A DNA stretch of 64,000 nt from positions 1-64,000 of the IMG/VR virus record IMGVR_UViG_3300026292_000602; one strand, 5' to 3'. Position 1 is the stretch's first letter. Every line of letters begins with the position of its first letter. This document shows positions 2,794 through 60,588 of this stretch, piece by piece. The DNA is from a virus. Under the pieces are notes generated by a model that saw nothing but the letters and a program-made list of their open reading frames with translations, was not told the DNA's origin and made no database searches. The translations under genes and the position numbers were made by a program.

Positions 2794-3832
2794 TGAACTG
2801 ATTGAATACTTGGTTAACCTGTTGTGTACATCTTACAAACGTTGTACACTTAGGCATATCTTTTAAACGTCTTGCACCAATGTAAGTACAAGCACTTCTA
2901 ACACCTCCAAGTATTTCAGTAATAGTTGCGTCGACAGGTCCTTTGTGTGGAATCTTAACTACTTTACCTTCAGCACCTCTGTATCCATCTTTTCTACGAC
3001 CATGTCTTTGCATAGCTTCATCTGAACTCATACCATAGAACGTAACTTTGCCATCTATAATTTCGCCTTCTGATTCGTCGTGTCCTGCTAACATACCACC
3101 TAGCATAACAAAGTGTGTACCTGCTCCAAAGGCTTTTGCAACATCACCTGGATATACACAACCACCATCAGCAATAATGTGTCCACCTATACCATTTGCG
3201 GCATCAACACATTCTATTACGCCTGACAGTTGTGGAACTCCTACACCAGTTTGTAATCTAGTTGTACATACTGAACCTGGTCCAATACCAACTTTAACAA
3301 TGTCTGCTCCACGTATAATAAGTTCTTCTGTCATCTCTGCGGTAACAACGTTACCAGCAATAATAGTTTTGTCTGGATAGTTATCTCTCATTCGAGCAAT
3401 AAAGTCTCCGAAGTTTTCATGATAAGCATTTGCAACATCAACAGTAATAAATTTAATATCTGGAAATGCTTCTAATACTCTTACCATAGTGTTATAATCT
3501 TTAGCATCTTTATCCCAGATATAACCTGTACCTGTGCATACACTAAGGTACTTCATTTTAATTCCTTGCGACTTTTGTTCCCAGTCTTCAAATGAATTGT
3601 GCTTACCTATTACAGTTAGCATCTTATGATCTTGTAATACTTTAGCCATACTAAATGTACCAACTCCGTCCATATTACTTGACATAATAGGAACACCAGT
3701 CCAGTGATTGCCACTATTGTGGAATTGGAAAGTTCTAATAAGATCAACATCTCTTCGACTTTCTAATTTAGATCTCTTCGGCTTGAATAAGACGTCTTTG
3801 TAGTCTAGTTTAATGTCATCTTCAATTCTCAT
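2783..3832 (-). CDS. guaC: GMP reductase
   Basis: [15 protein letters not shown] start, [24 protein letters not shown]. Confidence 0.95.
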
Positions 3833-4431
3833 TATTTCGCTCCATAGTTAAATGATATTGCTATACGTTCTGCATCCGACCTATTTTGTTTTACGGCGTG
3901 TTTTACCCAAGCTGGGAAAATAACAAGCATACCTGGCTTAGGCGGATACGTAGCCATAGTACTTGTAATAGTATTGTATGAACTTAAATTATCTGGAATA
4001 TAATATTGTGCATCGTCATCTCTATAAAATTGTAAGTCGCCCATATTCTCTGTTGGAACGTCTATATAAAATACTCCACTTAATAAAGCATCTTGATGAT
4101 TATGTAAAGTATGATATGCTCCTGGTGGATTAATATTAATCCAGAAGTTTTGTAACTTCAGCGGAGGAAACCCTACATTGTTTCTAACAGTATCAATAGC
4201 TTTATCAAATTCGATAACCATTTGATTGAAGATAGGTTGTATCTCTGGCGGTAGTAAATCTATATTTTCAATACTACGACTATGCCAACCACCTTCATTA
4301 CTGTTACCAGCAAGTTCAGGTTCTTTATTTTTCCAAGCCTGTGCAATTTGTTTTATAGCACCACGATTAATGTCTTCGTTAATACCTGCAAATACAATGC
4401 TAGGAAACCATAAATCCGCTTTCAGTTCCAT
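3832..4431 (-). CDS. TIGR02466-like 2OG-Fe(II) oxygenase
   Basis: WININ...HNH...LSGVFY...IFPAW.KH...RIAISFN. Confidence 0.85.
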
Positions 4432-4434
4432 ATT

Positions 4435-4674
4435 CTAAAATCCATGCTCCATTAATCTTCTACGTTCTTCTTTTTTAGCACGAGCAATTCCGGCCGCTTT
4501 AGCCCTTGCTCTTTTTTCACTTGGCTTGGAGTAGTATTGTTTGTCTCTATACTCCTGCAAAATACCATCTTGTGCTACCTTCTTTTTAAATCTTCTTAAT
4601 GCTCCATTAAAGTCGTTCCCACGAACTTTAACAGTAAGCCCTTCTTTAGGCTTGTCCTTGTTGAATCTTGAGAT
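4435..4674 (-). CDS. rpsU: Ribosomal protein bS21 with apparent non-canonical ATC start
   Basis: Missing from the ORF track. Reads ...LTVKVRGNDFNGALRRFKKKVAQDGILQEYRDKQYYSKPSEKRARAK...; GAGGAG SD 7 nt before ATC; in-frame TAG just upstream. Confidence 0.9.
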   Translation of the reverse strand: MSRFNKDKPKEGLTVKVRGNDFNGALRRFKKKVAQDGILQEYRDKQYYSKPSEKRARAKAAGIARAKKEERRRLMEHGF

Positions 4675-5053
4675 TGTTCTTCTCCTCTACAATCGTTCTA
4701 ACATCATAAATCCTATGATTGTTAATTATATTATAAGGCATTTCCTCTTGATTTGTCAAGTAGTATGTTTTGTCAAAGTTTAAAAGATAACCTACTAGCC
4801 ATGCAAACTCATTGCGAGTAGCATCAACATCTAATATAATATTATCAACTTGATTTACGACATCCAGCAACCAAATACTATTCGGTGAATCATTCTGATC
4901 AAACAAATAAACATTTAAGTCTTTGCCAATTTGTTTTGCTAACTCATTAAACTGTTCTTTAATAACTTCGCTAGGGTTTACTAACAAGAAACTCTTATTG
5001 TCGTTAAACAGTTTATCAGGTGGCGTGATCAAATTGATTACTGGCTCTTTCAT
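4646..5053 (-). CDS. Hypothetical phage protein
   Basis: 135-aa ORF in operon context. Confidence 0.75.
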   Translation of the reverse strand: MKEPVINLITPPDKLFNDNKSFLLVNPSEVIKEQFNELAKQIGKDLNVYLFDQNDSPNSIWLLDVVNQVDNIILDVDATRNEFAWLVGYLLNFDKTYYLTNQEEMPYNIINNHRIYDVRTIVEEKNNLKIQQGQA

Positions 5054-5131
5054 ACTATTACTTATTTTCTTGAATCTTTTGCCAAATAGAGTCTTGGCTT
5101 TGTTCTTGGTTTTGGACGTAATTTTCGGATT

Positions 5132-6925
5132 CTATGACTGTTGTGAAGTCGGGTCTGAGTCTTCCGGATTTGTCTGAGCCCGGATTTGCTTGTTGCTTAC
5201 CTTTGTTATGTAATTGGTTCCCTTCACCGTTTTTTTTTGAGCTTCGTCTATTTGTTTAACTTCTTCGCCATAAAAGATTCTGTTGACTGTGTCAGGAAAC
5301 TCTTTATCTTTTGCTTTTTCTTTATCTTCTTTAGCAACTTCTTCTTCAGCCGCCTCTACCCATTTATTCCATTTTTCAATATCTTGTGCTTCTTCAATAA
5401 CATTATCTTCTTTTTCTAAAGCCTCTTGCATTTCTTCATCATCTGGAATTGAAGGTAAAACTTCTGCTACTTTAGGCTCTGGACGAGGTTCTAGCTCTTC
5501 TTCCATCTGTTCGCTTACAGTTTTTTCTTCTTCTTTAGCTTCTTCTTCTATTTCTTCAGCAACTTTTTCTAGGTCTTCTTCTAGTTCTTGCTTTGTTTCT
5601 TCTTCAACTTCTTCTATACGTTTTTCTACTTCACGTTCTACTTCTTCAGTATCTTCTTTTTCTTGTATAGCTTGATTATCAATCTTTTCCTGAATTACAG
5701 GGTGGGTATATGGTGTGTTATATGATTGTTGAATGTCTTCACCTTCCCAAGTATCTTTACCGCTTGGGGGGTCGTTAGGATTTTCTGGATCTGGATCGGA
5801 CTTTGGGGGCAACTTCGGGCCCTTGTCCTCTCTAACGTATTGGAATGTATATTGTGAAGCAATTAAAAGTAATACTGCTAATGGATCAAATACAAATATA
5901 ATTATTATAATAACCCAACGTACTGCTGACTCTAGTAAGTCTTGGTTTGCTTGTTCACCATATATAAACTCTGCAATATACTTAATAGGACCTACTTCAG
6001 CTTCAAGTTTTCTGTAAGTCTTTTCGTAAGCAAACTTCTCTTCTCTAACACCATCAATAATAGTTTGTTCTTTATCAATGAATGTTTCTAATTCTGTTAC
6101 ACGAGCATCTAAGTCTTCTGTTTTAGCATTAGCTTGACCACGTAAATCTTGTATTCTCTCTTGTATTGCTTTAATATCATCTGCATACTTGGCATCAACT
6201 TTAGCAAGTGCTTCATTTAAGGCCGCATTAATTTTCTTTATTTCTTTTTGGGCATTACTTGCCACACTTAATTCATTAGCTTTAGCTTGTGCTACTGCTT
6301 CATCAAACTTCGCACCGCCACCAAATGAACCTTCAAATCTATCTTTGGCCGCTTGTATATCTGCGTCTTTACGTTCTTTAGCTTGTATTAGTCTTTGGTT
6401 CTGTAATTCTATTTGTTTATCAAAGTCTATTCTTACATCATCTTTTTCAGATTTAATTAATATATTAATTTTGTCTAATTCTTTTTGTTCACGATCAATT
6501 AAGTTATCAACACGAATATCTTCACCACCTAATAGACGTTCCATTTCTAATGTCCAACGTTCTATTTTACCTTCGGATCGTGCCATCTTATCTTCGATGG
6601 TTTCAATAAGAGCGACTTGCTCTTGACTCATTGATGTTTGTTCTATGTGGGCTTTAGATAAAAAGCCAAAGATACCCATACTTGTAATAAACATTAATAC
6701 AAATACTGCTAGGGCAAGATAAGTTCTTAACCACCAGGTTGCTCGTTGCCAATGTCTATGGAGCCATACTGCCGTGACTAGTTTACCGACTTCTAATGAT
6801 ACACCCATTATTATAATAGGTATAACAGCCGCCGCGAAAATTGCCGCCAATCCAGCGACCGAATAGTATATAGCTACCGCACTAATCGTTAATGCAGATA
6901 GAAATGTTAGTATTCCTAGTAACAT
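5132..6925 (-). CDS. Membrane-anchored coiled-coil protein with acidic tail; likely -1 frameshift extension to 5058
   Basis: N-terminal TM helices, long heptad region, further TM segment, E-rich tail; A9 run at 5230-5238. Confidence 0.8.
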   Translation of the reverse strand: MLLGILTFLSALTISAVAIYYSVAGLAAIFAAAVIPIIIMGVSLEVGKLVTAVWLHRHWQRATWWLRTYLALAVFVLMFITSMGIFGFLSKAHIEQTSMSQEQVALIETIEDKMARSEGKIERWTLEMERLLGGEDIRVDNLIDREQKELDKINILIKSEKDDVRIDFDKQIELQNQRLIQAKERKDADIQAAKDRFEGSFGGGAKFDEAVAQAKANELSVASNAQKEIKKINAALNEALAKVDAKYADDIKAIQERIQDLRGQANAKTEDLDARVTELETFIDKEQTIIDGVREEKFAYEKTYRKLEAEVGPIKYIAEFIYGEQANQDLLESAVRWVIIIIIFVFDPLAVLLLIASQYTFQYVREDKGPKLPPKSDPDPENPNDPPSGKDTWEGEDIQQSYNTPYTHPVIQEKIDNQAIQEKEDTEEVEREVEKRIEEVEEETKQELEEDLEKVAEEIEEEAKEEEKTVSEQMEEELEPRPEPKVAEVLPSIPDDEEMQEALEKEDNVIEEAQDIEKWNKWVEAAEEEVAKEDKEKAKDKEFPDTVNRIFYGEEVKQIDEAQKKTVKGTNYITKVSNKQIRAQTNPEDSDPTSQQS

Positions 6926-11882: not shown

Positions 11883-12058
11883 ATAGTTTAATTAGTTATC
11901 CACAGCCTGATATACAGACTATAAGCAAACTTGGATCTATTGCATTTATAACGGCTCCTACCACTATAACGCCCAACCAAATTTCTATAGGTGTCATGTC
12001 ACACACTCCATACTAATTGAACTTACTAGAACTATTATAGCAGAGTTGCTATGGCTTG

Positions 12059-13126
12059 TCAACCTAATAATGGATTTGATGGATTAACTTCTAAATACTT
12101 ACCCCATTCGGCGTAATAATGACGCATACCAACTTCATCGTGTATAGTATGATTCTCGTGTCTACCATGTAAAATGTTTCTACGTTCAGTACCTGGAGCC
12201 ATTGATGCACCTTGTCCTGTAACGCCTAGCAAGTCTTCGTGTAAGTTTCTACCAAAAGGTCCCCAAATAGTATTATGGTGTCTAATACGAGTTTGTCTTT
12301 CTTCTGGTGTATCTTTCTTTAGTCCGTATCCTCTAAATTCAATTAGTACACTATTAGGTCCTAAAGGAGTTACACTATCTGAACGATATGCACTACCACG
12401 TAGGTTAAAGTTAAAGCCAGGAAATAAGTCAACCATATACCATTGATTGGGCGGTAAGTTAGGAAAACTTAATTCTCCTCTATCACCTTCCTTATCAAAC
12501 TCTGTATAGTTGACAGTAAAAGAACTAACATTAACGTGGCCGTTATCGAACGCAATATTCTTACGAGCAAAGTATTCATCATTAAATCCTGTTACACGAT
12601 TGAAGTAGTGCATAAAGTCATGATAAAATTCACTGTTAGTATCGTGCCATAGTTTATAGTTAGTAGGAATGATTGCTTTATGATAATGGAATACTTCTAA
12701 TTCCTCTGTATCAATAGCATCAGCTATACAATCAAATGCACCTGCTGTCCATTGTTCTACAGTTTGATCAGGTTCAGGGTTTAATGTTACCCATATCATA
12801 CCTCCGTGCTTTACTTCCAAATGCAACTGTGGTTCAACAGTTACAATAGGTGCTCCTAATGTTCCTGCTGGTGTTTGATTACCATAGTTACGATATGCTT
12901 TAAATCCTTTGCCTGTATTATATACAAGAACATTAACACCTGCTATCTGTGTTGTTCTAAAGTCTAACTCATTTGGTAGTTCACTTTTATGACACATAGG
13001 TATCCAAACCTTACTAAAGATTTGTTCTTGTTCTTTATCGTGTATGTCTTGATTGTTATAGCACTCGCTACTAATATATTCTACTTTTGGTTCTGCTAAC
13101 CAATTTCTATGATTGCGTGGTGGCAT
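12059..13126 (-). CDS. Ring-hydroxylating (Rieske-type) oxygenase alpha subunit homolog lacking the Rieske cluster ligands
   Basis: E..IFSKVW..CH.SELP N-terminus, NYK...EFYH...H and later ED catalytic residues; no CxH...CxxH. Confidence 0.8.
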   Translation of the reverse strand: MPPRNHRNWLAEPKVEYISSECYNNQDIHDKEQEQIFSKVWIPMCHKSELPNELDFRTTQIAGVNVLVYNTGKGFKAYRNYGNQTPAGTLGAPIVTVEPQLHLEVKHGGMIWVTLNPEPDQTVEQWTAGAFDCIADAIDTEELEVFHYHKAIIPTNYKLWHDTNSEFYHDFMHYFNRVTGFNDEYFARKNIAFDNGHVNVSSFTVNYTEFDKEGDRGELSFPNLPPNQWYMVDLFPGFNFNLRGSAYRSDSVTPLGPNSVLIEFRGYGLKKDTPEERQTRIRHHNTIWGPFGRNLHEDLLGVTGQGASMAPGTERRNILHGRHENHTIHDEVGMRHYYAEWGKYLEVNPSNPLLG

Positions 13127-13204: not shown

Positions 13205-13505
13205 TAGACGCAACGTTTCTGTTGCTAGGTACGTTGCCAACCCCGAGTGATTATGCCGCTAGGGCAAAATCCTCATTTACCGCAGTTACTGGCGCAGAAA
13301 AATCTACGAAAGTAACGTTGGTTAGTGCATTATCGTTTGCATCTATAACGTTTGTTCGCGTTAACGGAGCTTACATCCCGGTAATCTCGTTCAACCTTAA
13401 CAAGCCAGTCGATCCTATTTCTACCCCGTAGGGGGTGTATTGAAATGGTGGAGTAGCCGGGTATCGCACCCGGGTCCTGCTCTTGTGACATACGTTGCTG
13501 TCATC
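13205..13505 (-). ncRNA. ssrA: tmRNA, circularly permuted two-piece type
   Basis: Acceptor piece ...CCCGGGUGCGAUACCCGGCUACUCCACCA (3' end 13446) lies upstream of the coding piece GGGGUAGAAAUAGGAUCGAC (5' end 13427); tag ANDNALTNVTFVDFSAPVTAVNEDFALAA at 13340-13251. Outer boundaries approximate. Confidence 0.93.
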
Positions 13506-13577
13506 AATTACAGTAATATTTAGCCTTAATATGCTACTATTATAGGAAAAGAGATAACTAATGTCAAAGGAAAAACA

Positions 13578-32101: not shown

Positions 32102-32178
32102 GGCAGAGTAGCTCAGGTGGTTAGAGCACCGGACTCATAAGCCGGGGGTCGCAGGTTCGAATCCTGCCTCTGCTACCA
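32102..32178 (+). tRNA. tRNA-Met(CAT), elongator type (Ile2 not excluded)
   Basis: Cloverleaf with loop CUCAUAA. Confidence 0.88.
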
Positions 32179-60126: not shown

Positions 60127-60588
60127 GGTACCTTATATTATGGCATCATTATTGATAAAAGTCAAGGAGGAGGTTTACCAAAAATTCTCTATATTTTTCA
60201 AGAGGTTAGGACCCTGAGCCTCAGGTCAGAGTTCGGCCCACCCTTTGAGTATCGAAGTTTTTCTGTCCTGGTTTGTCTTAACCTTACCCTTTTTTTGGTG
60301 GGCGGATCTCTTGCTCCGGCTTATACTATTATAATATGATCTCTTGGGGGATTTGTCAACCATTTTCTTTGTTTTGGCCCCATCTTTTTTTGGCACTAGA
60401 TCTAGTGGGTGGGGGAGGTATAAACCACAAGCGGAAATCAGCCCATCGGGAGCGTGGCAGTCTTTATTATAGCATATTTTGGATTGGATGTCAACCAAAA
60501 AAAAATGGTATTTTTTGGAAAAAAGAGGTTGACCTTTTGGATTAGAGACTGTATTATAATATTAACAATAAGGAAATAGGAGGGCTAC

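What the first reader, a model, noticed from the sequence alone, without database searches (positions are those of the whole stretch)
4435..4690. Hidden ribosomal protein bS21 gene that appears to start at ATC
Seen: a complete bS21 reading frame missed by the ORF caller. An in-frame TAG lies five codons upstream of the ATC, no ATG/GTG/TTG occurs before mid-domain, and GAGGAG sits 7 nt before the ATC. Established: large phages carry bS21, and AUU-type starts (infC) respond to IF3 levels. Inference: expression of phage bS21 may be gated by initiation fidelity.
Basis: partly seen in the sequence, partly recalled or inferred. Interest (0 to 1): 0.7.

Follow-up and report, generated by a model that had tools for sequence, protein, structure and literature searches.

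The report
Phage bS21 gene starting at ATC
A widespread marine giant phage carries an intact ribosomal protein bS21 gene with no normal start codon: an ATC sits where about 30 related phage sequences all keep a weak TTG start, so it is probably a rare natural AUC start, though translation is not yet shown.

Summary
On the minus strand, 4674..4435 is a complete bS21 frame (Pfam PF01165, 61 bits). It has no ATG, GTG or TTG before codon 39. An in-frame TAG lies at 4689-4687, and GAGGAG lies 7 nt before ATC 4674-4672. Contigs from three independent marine metagenome studies read the same ATC, so it is not an assembly error.

Gene callers missed this gene, although its upstream neighbour is on record from 44 contigs.

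The new context is a rigid expression module shared by the marine relatives:
- A perfect sigma-70 consensus promoter (TTGACA-18 nt-TATAAT, 4759-4730) lies inside the upstream gene. It is conserved at synonymous sites in 30 of 30 bS21-bearing sequences.
- A leader of about 50 nt and a GGAG ribosome-binding site follow.
- All 29 related sequences then start at TTG.
- Relatives without bS21 lack the promoter, and so does a distant clade that starts at ATG.

In this phage a 3-nt deletion removed the TTG and left ATC in its place. The protein shows no extra divergence.

Best reading (0.55): bS21 is still made, at a low level, from AUC. Main rival (0.25): the gene was silenced recently. IF3 gating remains an untested inference.

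Earlier scan notes cover other bS21 phages, but none describes this.

The parts
4435..4674 (-). bS21 coding frame: 79 codons from ATC, then stop TAG 4437-4435
   Evidence: open frame. PF01165, E = 8.9e-17, 61 bits; matches solved bS21 chains; residue 15 aligns with E. coli residue 4; no difference in three independent assemblies.
4672..4674 (-). ATC, the proposed near-cognate start codon. It is homologous to the TTG start of relatives.
   Evidence: 29 related sequences read TTG followed by TCA/CCA..., where the window reads ATC TCA AGA TTC. ATC confirmed in runs X11, X14 and X16.
4682..4687 (-). Shine-Dalgarno GAGGAG (core AGGAG), 7 nt before the ATC
   Evidence: The same GAGGAG or GAAGGAG is seen in relatives, 5-10 nt before their TTG. 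AGGAG-type SDs are common in the window's genes.
4687..4689 (-). In-frame TAG that closes the bS21 frame upstream and overlaps the SD
   Evidence: 28 of 29 related sequences also have an in-frame stop 6-27 nt before the start. TAG is a normal stop here, ending 10 of 45 long ORFs.
4730..4759 (-). Perfect sigma-70 consensus promoter inside the upstream ORF: -35 TTGACA at 4759-4754, 18-nt spacer, -10 TATAAT at 4735-4730
   Evidence: 12 of 12 positions match; 4 such sites in the window against 0.12 expected. TTGACA in 30 of 30 and TATAAT in 29 of 30 bS21-bearing sequences, spacer always 18, although codon usage predicts about 5% and 37%; absent where bS21 is absent, and absent in the ATG-start clade.
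4675..4723 (-). Predicted 49-nt mRNA leader. The transcript start near 4723 is inferred from the -10 box and has not been mapped.
   Evidence: leader is 52 nt in most relatives (range 43-55) and 49 nt here because of the 3-nt deletion; no conserved secondary structure.
4646..5053 (-). Upstream 135-aa ORF of unknown function. Its 3' part carries the promoter, the SD and the bS21 start, and it overlaps bS21 by 29 nt in the +1 frame.
   Evidence: (no Pfam match). Its invariant L-T and Y-N residues are the -35 and -10 boxes.
4687..4707 (-). Six-codon mini-ORF in the leader (ATG ATG ... TAG), in the bS21 frame. It is probably incidental.
   Evidence: about half of the relatives have no such in-frame start, so it is not a feature of the family.
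3832..4431 (-). Downstream 2OG-Fe(II) oxygenase gene, 3 nt after the bS21 stop and probably co-transcribed
   Evidence: PF13759, E = 3.8e-25; same gene order in relatives, and the gene is kept in lineages that lost bS21.

Best explanation
This is a working phage bS21 gene inside a conserved expression module. Its usual weak TTG start has been replaced by the still weaker near-cognate ATC.

Proposed sequence of events:
- Host RNA polymerase with sigma-70 reads a perfect consensus promoter buried in the upstream gene (4759-4730). It makes an mRNA with a leader of about 49 nt.
- A 30S subunit docks on AGGAG (4686-4682).
- Initiator tRNA then starts at AUC (4674-4672), giving a 79-residue bS21 that begins with fMet. 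By E. coli figures, the efficiency per mRNA would be a few percent of an AUG start.

Shown here: the gene, the ATC, the SD, the promoter sequence and its synonymous-site conservation, the family-wide TTG, and the lack of extra protein divergence.

Inferred: the transcript start, initiation at AUC, low output, and any dependence on IF3 or on the state of the ribosome.
For: The gene is real and the ATC is real.

Homology of the start:
- The 29 related sequences read (T)TTG TCA/CCA... behind a GGAG SD. The window reads ATC TCA AGA TTC behind GAGGAG.
- The TTG survives while the overlapping upstream-ORF codon changes (TTT, ATT, CTG, CCA/ATT). More than 45 distinct protein tails stay TTG-compatible. 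So a weak start codon is itself conserved.
- TTG is rare among the window's genes, at 10% or less.

No sign of decay:
- Nei-Gojobori against L001 gives dN 0.21 and dS 1.04. The estimated dN of the window's own branch is about 0.09, against 0.12 for L001.
- The window's distances to outgroups are the lowest or near-lowest in its clade.
- bS21 identity to 18 relatives lies on or above the trend set by the neighbouring gene. Residuals run from -0.05 to +0.14, with a scatter sd of 0.06.
- All invariant residues, including the KPS and AAG motifs, are kept.

The module is intact in the window:
- The promoter matches 12 of 12 positions.
- Lineages that lost bS21 but kept the downstream genes have lost this promoter. 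The promoter therefore appears to be maintained for bS21.

The lineage is successful:
- The same stretch is held at 91% or more of sampled words in 17 marine DNA runs (at least 13 studies, 2014-2025).
- The neighbouring ORF is on 44+5+1 contigs, all with the tail that encodes the ATC region.

Published support: AUC supports initiation with an N-terminal Met at 1-2% of AUG in E. coli (Hecht et al., bioRxiv 10.1101/063800).

Weak hint: a 169-nt contig of a metatranscriptome lies inside the gene at 4459-4624.
Against: - There is no direct evidence of translation.
- Among about 30 sequences of the clade, this lineage is the only one without TTG. The state is derived, not conserved.
- The ATH codon can be there by ancestry. 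Many relatives read ATT TTG TCA, so deleting three bases leaves ATT/ATC in front of TCA without any selection for a start.
- The time since the TTG was lost is unknown, because nothing lies between the 90% cluster and the 69-76% relatives. Divergence tests therefore cannot exclude recent silencing.
- The window's protein has two replacements at columns that are 85-99% conserved and seen in none of 120 relatives (E to K, N to G). It deviates at 6 of 36 conserved columns, against a mean of 1.8.
- bS21 is dispensable in this family, since two lineage groups have deleted it.
- AUC efficiency in the unknown host, probably an alphaproteobacterium, is not known.
Confidence: 0.55

Rival explanations
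1. The gene was silenced recently. A 3-nt deletion removed the TTG start, bS21 is no longer made in useful amounts, and the frame has simply not yet had time to decay or be deleted.
For: - This is the only sequence among about 30 of the clade without TTG.
- The ATC is explained by ancestry from an ATT TTG context.
- bS21 has been lost outright in two related lineage groups, so it is dispensable.
- The protein has two unique replacements at highly conserved columns.
- The ML tree gives it the longest end branch, 0.62, though inside an unresolved fork.
- Near-cognate starts give only 1-2% of AUG in E. coli.
Against: - There is no excess divergence against outgroups or against the neighbouring gene.
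- The frame is open over 79 codons in a 37% GC genome.
- There is no difference in the gene in three strain variants, one of which carries 5 SNPs in the flanks.
- The perfect promoter and the SD are kept, whereas bS21-less lineages have lost the promoter.
- The lineage is globally spread and persisted from 2014 to 2025.
- None of these points excludes a very recent event.
Confidence: 0.25
2. bS21 is made by re-initiation rather than by free 30S binding. Ribosomes would finish either the upstream 135-aa ORF (stop at 4648-4646, 23 nt past the ATC codon) or the 6-codon leader mini-ORF (stop TAG 4689-4687, 12 nt before the ATC). They would then restart locally, held by the SD, again at AUC.
For: - The bS21 start overlaps the end of the upstream ORF in every relative, by about 10-30 nt.
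- An in-frame stop lies 6-27 nt before the start in 28 of 29 related sequences.
- The window has an ATG ATG mini-ORF behind an AGGA motif that ends at that stop.
- Re-initiation in E. coli uses initiator tRNA and IF2, and is lowered by excess IF3 (Yoo and RajBhandary, PMC2268962).
Against: - The embedded promoter would make an mRNA that lacks the start of the upstream ORF, so coupling to that ORF cannot work on that transcript.
- The leader mini-ORF is missing in about half of the relatives.
- No conserved hairpin hides the SD.
- This is a variant of the main reading, since the start codon would still be AUC.
Confidence: 0.1
3. bS21 is made as a fusion. This would need either a +1 frameshift from the upstream ORF within 4689-4646, or read-through of the TAG at 4689-4687 from the leader ATG at 4707.
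For: The bS21 frame is +1 to the upstream ORF and overlaps it by 29 nt from the ATC (44 nt from the in-frame TAG). An in-frame ATG lies 6 codons before the TAG.
Against: - Relatives have a separate TTG start with its own SD and promoter.
- The overlap holds no slippery or RF2-like motif.
- TAG ends 10 of 45 long ORFs, and bS21's own stop is TAG. Reading that stop through would fuse bS21 in frame to the oxygenase.
Confidence: 0.03
4. Sequencing or assembly error: the true codon is ATG or TTG.
For: None beyond prior expectation for a single metagenome contig.
Against: - Three independent assemblies from three studies give ATC with no difference in 4435-4690.
- 17 runs hold the stretch.
- The overlapping protein tail (..NNL..) is identical on 50 contigs from six sources.
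Confidence: 0.01

Closest known systems
Phage-encoded ribosomal protein bS21 (Pelagibacter phage HTVC008M, Mosig, Melnitz; huge phages)
   Same: - It belongs to the same protein family (PF01165).
- It sits in an aquatic myovirus-like giant phage that also carries tRNAs and a tmRNA.
- HTVC008M bS21 enters E. coli ribosomes (Mizuno 2019, PMC6375957).
- Phage bS21 is proposed to replace host bS21 (PMC9976891; PMC9723584).
   Different: - Identity to the cultured examples is only 41-48%.
- Those genes start at ATG (HTVC008M, Melnitz) or TTG (Mosig). This one has no canonical start.
- The papers read here say nothing about start codons or native promoters of phage bS21.
E. coli infC and pcnB (AUU starts; infC autoregulated through IF3 discrimination)
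   Same: - An AUH near-cognate start lies behind a functional SD on a translation-related gene.
- AUC belongs to the same efficiency class as AUU, at 1-2% of AUG.
   Different: - The infC AUU is conserved across species and its IF3 feedback is proven. Here the AUC is confined to one lineage and the relatives use UUG.
- The gene product is not IF3, and no IF3 gene is present in the phage.
- Nothing has been tested experimentally.
rpsU autoregulation in Flavobacteriales (extended SD read by bS21-free ribosomes)
   Same: The initiation region of a bS21 gene stands out from its neighbours and is strongly conserved. This suggests that bS21 output is set at the initiation step.
   Different: - That system relies on an exceptionally long SD (below -13 kcal/mol) in hosts whose other genes lack SDs.
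- Here the SD is an ordinary 5-6 nt AGGAG, as in many genes of the window.
- The host type is alphaproteobacterial by its tmRNA.
- The special features here are the promoter and the weak start codon.
Promoters embedded in the coding sequence of the upstream gene
   Same: The -35 and -10 boxes are encoded by conserved amino-acid pairs (L-T, Y-N) of the upstream ORF, with synonymous sites frozen.
   Different: - The match is a perfect 12 of 12 to the consensus, kept across about 30 diverged sequences.
- It is present only where bS21 with a TTG or ATC start follows.
- The same perfect consensus also precedes the phage's tRNA cluster and its tmRNA.

Membership tests
Ribosomal protein bS21 (Pfam PF01165) | Match to the family profile above the curated cut-off | tested here: met
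   61 bits against a cut-off of 27, E = 8.9e-17, profile positions 1-49 of 55; 55 bits in the six-frame search.
Ribosomal protein bS21 (Pfam PF01165) | Sequence similarity to bS21 chains solved within ribosomes | tested here: met
   26 distinct bS21 chains match. E. coli gives E = 1.6e-9 over residues 15-71.
Ribosomal protein bS21 (Pfam PF01165) | Conserved residues of its phage clade are kept | tested here: met
   30 of 36 columns conserved at 80% or more are kept, and all invariant columns are kept. Two replacements are unique to this sequence (E to K, N to G).
Ribosomal protein bS21 (Pfam PF01165) | Incorporation into the 30S subunit | not testable with these tools
   This needs expression and ribosome purification, as was done for HTVC008M bS21 (PMC6375957).
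Genes with a functional non-canonical AUH start (infC / pcnB type) | No canonical start is available upstream of the conserved domain | tested here: met
   the frame is closed by TAG 4689-4687, and the first ATG/GTG/TTG is at codon 39.
Genes with a functional non-canonical AUH start (infC / pcnB type) | A near-cognate codon lies at SD distance, at the position where homologues start | tested here: met
   the ATC is 7 nt after GAGGAG and aligns with the TTG of 29 related sequences.
Genes with a functional non-canonical AUH start (infC / pcnB type) | The non-canonical codon is conserved across diverged relatives | tested here: not met
   The ATC is fixed within this lineage, but all other lineages have TTG or ATG. 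No relative lies between 76% and about 100% identity.
Genes with a functional non-canonical AUH start (infC / pcnB type) | Protein N-terminus or ribosome footprint at the codon; response to IF3 | not testable with these tools
   No culture, Ribo-seq or proteome is available. Only one RNA contig lies inside the gene.
Sigma-70 (housekeeping) promoter | -35 TTGACA and -10 TATAAT with a 16-18 nt spacer | tested here: met
   12 of 12 positions match, with an 18-nt spacer; 4 perfect sites against 0.12 expected.
Sigma-70 (housekeeping) promoter | Conservation beyond what the encoded protein requires | tested here: met
   TTG is 11.6% of Leu codons, ACA 47% of Thr, TAT 62% of Tyr and AAT 60% of Asn. 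Yet TTGACA is seen in 30 of 30 and TATAAT in 29 of 30 bS21-bearing sequences.
Sigma-70 (housekeeping) promoter | Mapped transcript start | not testable with these tools
   Only contigs of RNA runs were available, and these cannot show RNA ends.
Flavobacterial-type rpsU autoregulation | An exceptionally strong extended SD in a genome whose other genes lack SDs | tested here: not met
   many genes of the window carry AGGAG or AGGAGG. The bS21 SD is a 5-6 nt AGGAG.

The most novel reading that the evidence does not exclude
The marine giant-phage bS21 module is a feedback or timing device that works at start-codon selection. The module consists of a perfect host-type promoter hidden in the upstream gene, a fixed leader of about 50 nt, an SD, and an obligately weak start codon. 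bS21 output would then depend on initiation fidelity, meaning IF3 level or the bS21 and assembly state of the 30S subunits. The AUC lineage would be its most extreme natural setting. That would be a phage counterpart of infC-type autoregulation, acting on a ribosomal protein that itself sits at the mRNA docking site.
Probability: 0.15. Interest if true: 0.8.

Novelty: new variant of a known kind. Interest (0 to 1): 0.55.

Why it matters
Confirmed natural non-canonical bacterial starts are very few. In E. coli only infC and pcnB are confirmed, both with AUU. A fixed AUC start on a phage ribosomal-protein gene would add a clear natural case that can be tested with a simple reporter.

The family context may matter more. 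The most common virus-encoded ribosomal protein is here driven by a perfect host promoter, yet across some 30 diverged phage sequences it is deliberately held to a weak start codon. This suggests that the dose or timing of phage bS21 is tightly set at initiation. The papers on phage bS21 read here do not address that point.

On the practical side, gene callers that allow only ATG, GTG and TTG missed this gene on dozens of public contigs. Surveys of viral ribosomal proteins will therefore under-count such cases.

Tried and rejected
- **Searches that returned nothing.** blastn of the locus against 50,697 phage records found no match. An exact-pattern scan of viral contigs around the ATC also found nothing, because the own record and its near kin are withheld.
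- The 44 contigs carrying the neighbouring gene could therefore not be fetched, and read laying was used instead.
- **Truncated form.** The 41-aa truncated TTG form is not in the protein collection.
- **Closer relatives.** A search for relatives that might show the order of events found nothing between the 90% cluster and 69-76% identity.
- **Leader structure.** No conserved RNA structure around the start was found. The consensus energy is -1.77 kcal/mol and rests on one weak hairpin. The single-sequence z-score is -2.2, but that fold is not shared by relatives.
- **Phage IF3.** There was no IF3_C hit in this record or in three relatives. The records are partly incomplete.
- **Phage tRNA-Met.** The tRNA-Met(CAT) at 32102-32178 was checked as a special initiator. 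It has G1-U72 and lacks the three G-C pairs in the anticodon stem, so it is not initiator-like.
- **Leader mini-ORF.** It is not conserved in the family.
- **Amber recoding or read-through.** Rejected: TAG is a normal stop in this window.
- **Flavobacterial-type extended SD.** Rejected: the SD is ordinary and the host type uses SDs.
- **ML tree.** The window's bS21 has a long end branch (0.62), but it lies in an unresolved fork. Plain distances to outgroups show no acceleration, so the branch was not taken as evidence of decay.
- **RNA run X19.** It covers only 4459-4624 with one contig. This is a hint of transcription at most, since DNA carry-over cannot be excluded.

Full report
**What is there**

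On the minus strand, the frame from 4686 to 4438 is open. It is closed upstream by TAG 4689-4687 and ends at TAG 4437-4435.
- It matches Pfam Ribosomal_S21 at 61 bits against a cut-off of 27 (E = 8.9e-17).
- It matches solved bS21 chains, with residue 15 aligned to residue 4 of E. coli bS21.
- The first ATG, GTG or TTG in the frame is TTG 4560-4558, which is codon 39 and lies inside the domain.
- Between the upstream TAG and the domain, the only near-cognate start codon is ATC 4674-4672. It lies 7 nt after GAGGAG 4687-4682.

**Is the ATC real?**

The window is part of an 81,967-nt IMG/VR virus record, rated 23% complete. The 1.5-kb stretch around the gene is held at 91% or more of sampled words in 17 marine or seawater DNA runs from at least 13 studies, 2014-2025.

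Contigs from three of these runs were laid on the stretch. They come from three studies, and none is flagged as a possible source sample.
- X11 covers 4579-4770 with 0 differences.
- X14 covers 4250-5248 with 0 differences.
- X16 covers 3800-5300 with 5 differences, all outside 4435-4690.

The upstream 135-aa protein overlaps the ATC through its codons AAT CTC. It is on record from 44 contigs in six sources. Two variants on 5 and 1 contigs keep the same tail.

bS21 itself is absent from the protein collection, both as the 79-aa form (best recorded hit 76% identity) and as the 41-aa truncated form. Gene callers did miss it.

**Relatives**

tblastn-confirmed loci came from IMG/VR and from JGI/ENA metagenomes. 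A second set of 80 loci was found through the upstream ORF. All share the gene order coiled-coil membrane protein, 133-135-aa ORF, bS21, (2OG-Fe oxygenase), GMP reductase.

In the marine clade, 29 distinct sequences start bS21 at TTG, 5-10 nt behind a GGAG-type SD. The start always lies inside the last codons of the upstream ORF.

The overlapped upstream codon varies (TTT, ATT, CTG, CCA/ATT) while the TTG stays. More than 45 distinct protein tails in the large protein collection remain TTG-compatible. TTG is used by at most 10% of the window's genes. A weak start codon is therefore itself conserved.

A more distant clade starts bS21 at ATG. Among cultured phages, HTVC008M and Melnitz use ATG and Mosig uses TTG.

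**How the ATC arose**

The nearest relatives read ...ACT ATT TTG TCA A.. or ...ATA GCT TTG TCA A... The window reads ...ACA ATC TCA AGA...

The window therefore lacks three bases at the start and has three extra bases 12 nt downstream. This keeps both overlapping frames intact.

The ATC is the codon homologous to the TTG. However, an ATH codon in front of TCA is what a 3-nt deletion in an ATT TTG context would leave anyway. Its presence is therefore only weak evidence of selection for a start codon. Either order of events (deletion then substitution, or the reverse) passes through ATG or ATT. This last point is inference.

**A conserved promoter**

A scan found a perfect sigma-70 consensus on the minus strand at 4759-4730: TTGACA, 18 nt, TATAAT (12 of 12 positions). 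It lies inside the upstream ORF. There the -35 box is the invariant Leu-Thr pair and the -10 box is the invariant Tyr-Asn pair.
- TTGACA is present in 30 of 30 bS21-bearing sequences and TATAAT in 29 of 30. The spacer is always 18 nt.
- Codon usage in the window predicts about 5% for TTG ACA (TTG 11.6% of Leu, ACA 47% of Thr) and about 37% for TAT AAT.
- Synonymous sites between the main lineages are saturated (dS of 1 or more). This is therefore conservation of the DNA signal, not of the protein.
- Two lineage groups have lost bS21 but kept the downstream oxygenase. They lack the promoter (ATGACT...TACAAT, or no such motif). The ATG-start clade lacks it as well.
- The predicted leader is 52 nt in most relatives and 49 nt here.

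The same perfect consensus occurs only four times in the window, against 0.12 expected. The other three copies precede the tRNA-Ala/Glu/Asp cluster, the alpha-type permuted tmRNA, and a GC-rich stretch without a good ORF. bS21 thus belongs to a small set of translation-related phage genes behind perfect host-type promoters.

**Working gene or dead gene?**

Evidence that the gene is not decaying:
- Nei-Gojobori against the nearest clade gives dN 0.21 and dS 1.04. With L011 as outgroup, the window's own branch has dN of about 0.09, against 0.12 for L001.
- Protein distances from the window to five outgroups (0.38-0.41) are the lowest or near-lowest in its clade, where the others range from 0.39 to 0.49.
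- Over 18 relatives, bS21 identity lies on or above the line that relates bS21 identity to upstream-ORF identity in 153 other pairs. Residuals run from -0.05 to +0.14, with a scatter sd of 0.06.
- All invariant residues are kept.
- The strain variant in run X16 has five SNPs in the flanks and none in bS21.

Evidence on the other side:
- The window's protein deviates at 6 of 36 conserved columns (mean 1.8). Two of these replacements are seen in none of 120 relatives.
- The ML tree gives it a long end branch, though inside an unresolved fork.
- bS21 is dispensable in two related lineage groups.
- No relative is close enough to date the loss of the TTG.

**Mechanism**

The most likely reading has four steps:
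1. Host RNA polymerase transcribes from the embedded promoter.
2. The 30S subunit binds AGGAG.
3. Initiator tRNA starts at AUC.
4. A 79-residue bS21 is made at a low rate per mRNA.

In E. coli, AUC gives 1-2% of AUG, and an N-terminal Met has been shown by mass spectrometry. Only infC and pcnB, both AUU, are confirmed non-canonical starts there (bioRxiv 10.1101/063800).

Three observations fit selection for low translational efficiency of an abundant mRNA: a strong promoter, a family-wide weak start, and ATG in the clade without the promoter.

Whether IF3 or the state of the ribosome modulates this is open.
- No phage IF3 gene was found.
- The Flavobacterial rpsU mechanism (PMC9976891) does not apply. 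The SD is ordinary, and the window's genes generally use SDs.
- Coupling to the upstream ORF is unlikely on a transcript that begins inside that ORF.
- The leader mini-ORF (4707-4687) is not conserved.
- Frameshift fusion and amber read-through are rejected.

**Comparison with the literature**

Phage bS21 is well known (PMC6375957, PMC9723584, PMC9976891). None of these papers mentions start codons or native promoters of the phage genes, as checked by term searches.

The finding is therefore a new variant of known kinds, namely near-cognate initiation and viral bS21. It also adds a family-level regulatory architecture that the papers read here do not describe.

Earlier notes of this scan concern leaderless late mRNAs in other bS21 phages. 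They prompted the promoter check. This locus has a leader and a host-type promoter instead.

**Verdict**

- Translated from AUC: 0.55.
- Recently silenced: 0.25.
- Re-initiation variant: 0.10.
- Other: under 0.1.
- Interest: 0.55.

Noticed in passing
window 12034-12062, 13539-13567, 60466-60494 (all minus strand): Three more perfect TTGACA-N16-18-TATAAT promoters bring the total to 4, against 0.12 expected. One lies just upstream of the tRNA-Ala/Glu/Asp cluster. One lies at the 5' side of the permuted tmRNA. One lies upstream of a stretch without a good ORF. Together with the bS21 promoter, they suggest a set of translation-related genes read by host sigma-70.
   Followed up: partly
window about 60230-60459 (minus strand): A GC-rich stretch with no convincing ORF lies directly downstream of a perfect promoter. 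It may be a non-coding RNA. There was no Rfam match, even at E up to 1.
   Followed up: partly
window 13206-13571 (minus strand): A permuted tmRNA of the alphaproteobacterial type is present (Rfam RF01849 at 125 bits; ARAGORN tag AVNEDFALAA). This is a clue that the host is an alphaproteobacterium. An earlier scan note read a longer tag.
   Followed up: partly
window 32102-32178 (plus strand): The phage tRNA with anticodon CAT has a G1-U72 pair and an A31-G39 mismatch. It is not initiator-like. It could be an elongator Met or an Ile2-type tRNA.
   Followed up: partly
L067, L070 and L072/L073/L079/L080/L082, about 1230-1300: These relatives lack bS21. The upstream ORF is followed directly by the 2OG-Fe oxygenase. 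The embedded promoter is degraded in them, although L067 and L070 still end in the ..NYFE tail that once held the TTG.
   Followed up: yes
L075, L084-L094, L096-L115: A distant clade, mostly from other sample series, starts bS21 at ATG. Its upstream-ORF tail is acidic and carries no embedded consensus promoter. The downstream gene also differs.
   Followed up: partly
L040/L041 1238-1273: In this relative the stop before the SD is replaced by TTG. An in-frame ATG 12 codons upstream could therefore give a longer bS21 N-terminus.
   Followed up: no
window 4459-4624: A 169-nt contig of a marine metatranscriptome run (X19) lies wholly inside bS21, with 1 difference. None of its contigs covers the flanking genes. 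This is a hint of transcription only.
   Followed up: partly
window 5058-5245: There is a 78-nt gap between the 607-aa coiled-coil membrane protein (stop at 5132) and the 135-aa ORF (start at 5053). An earlier scan note proposes a -1 shift at an A9 run here. This was not examined.
   Followed up: no
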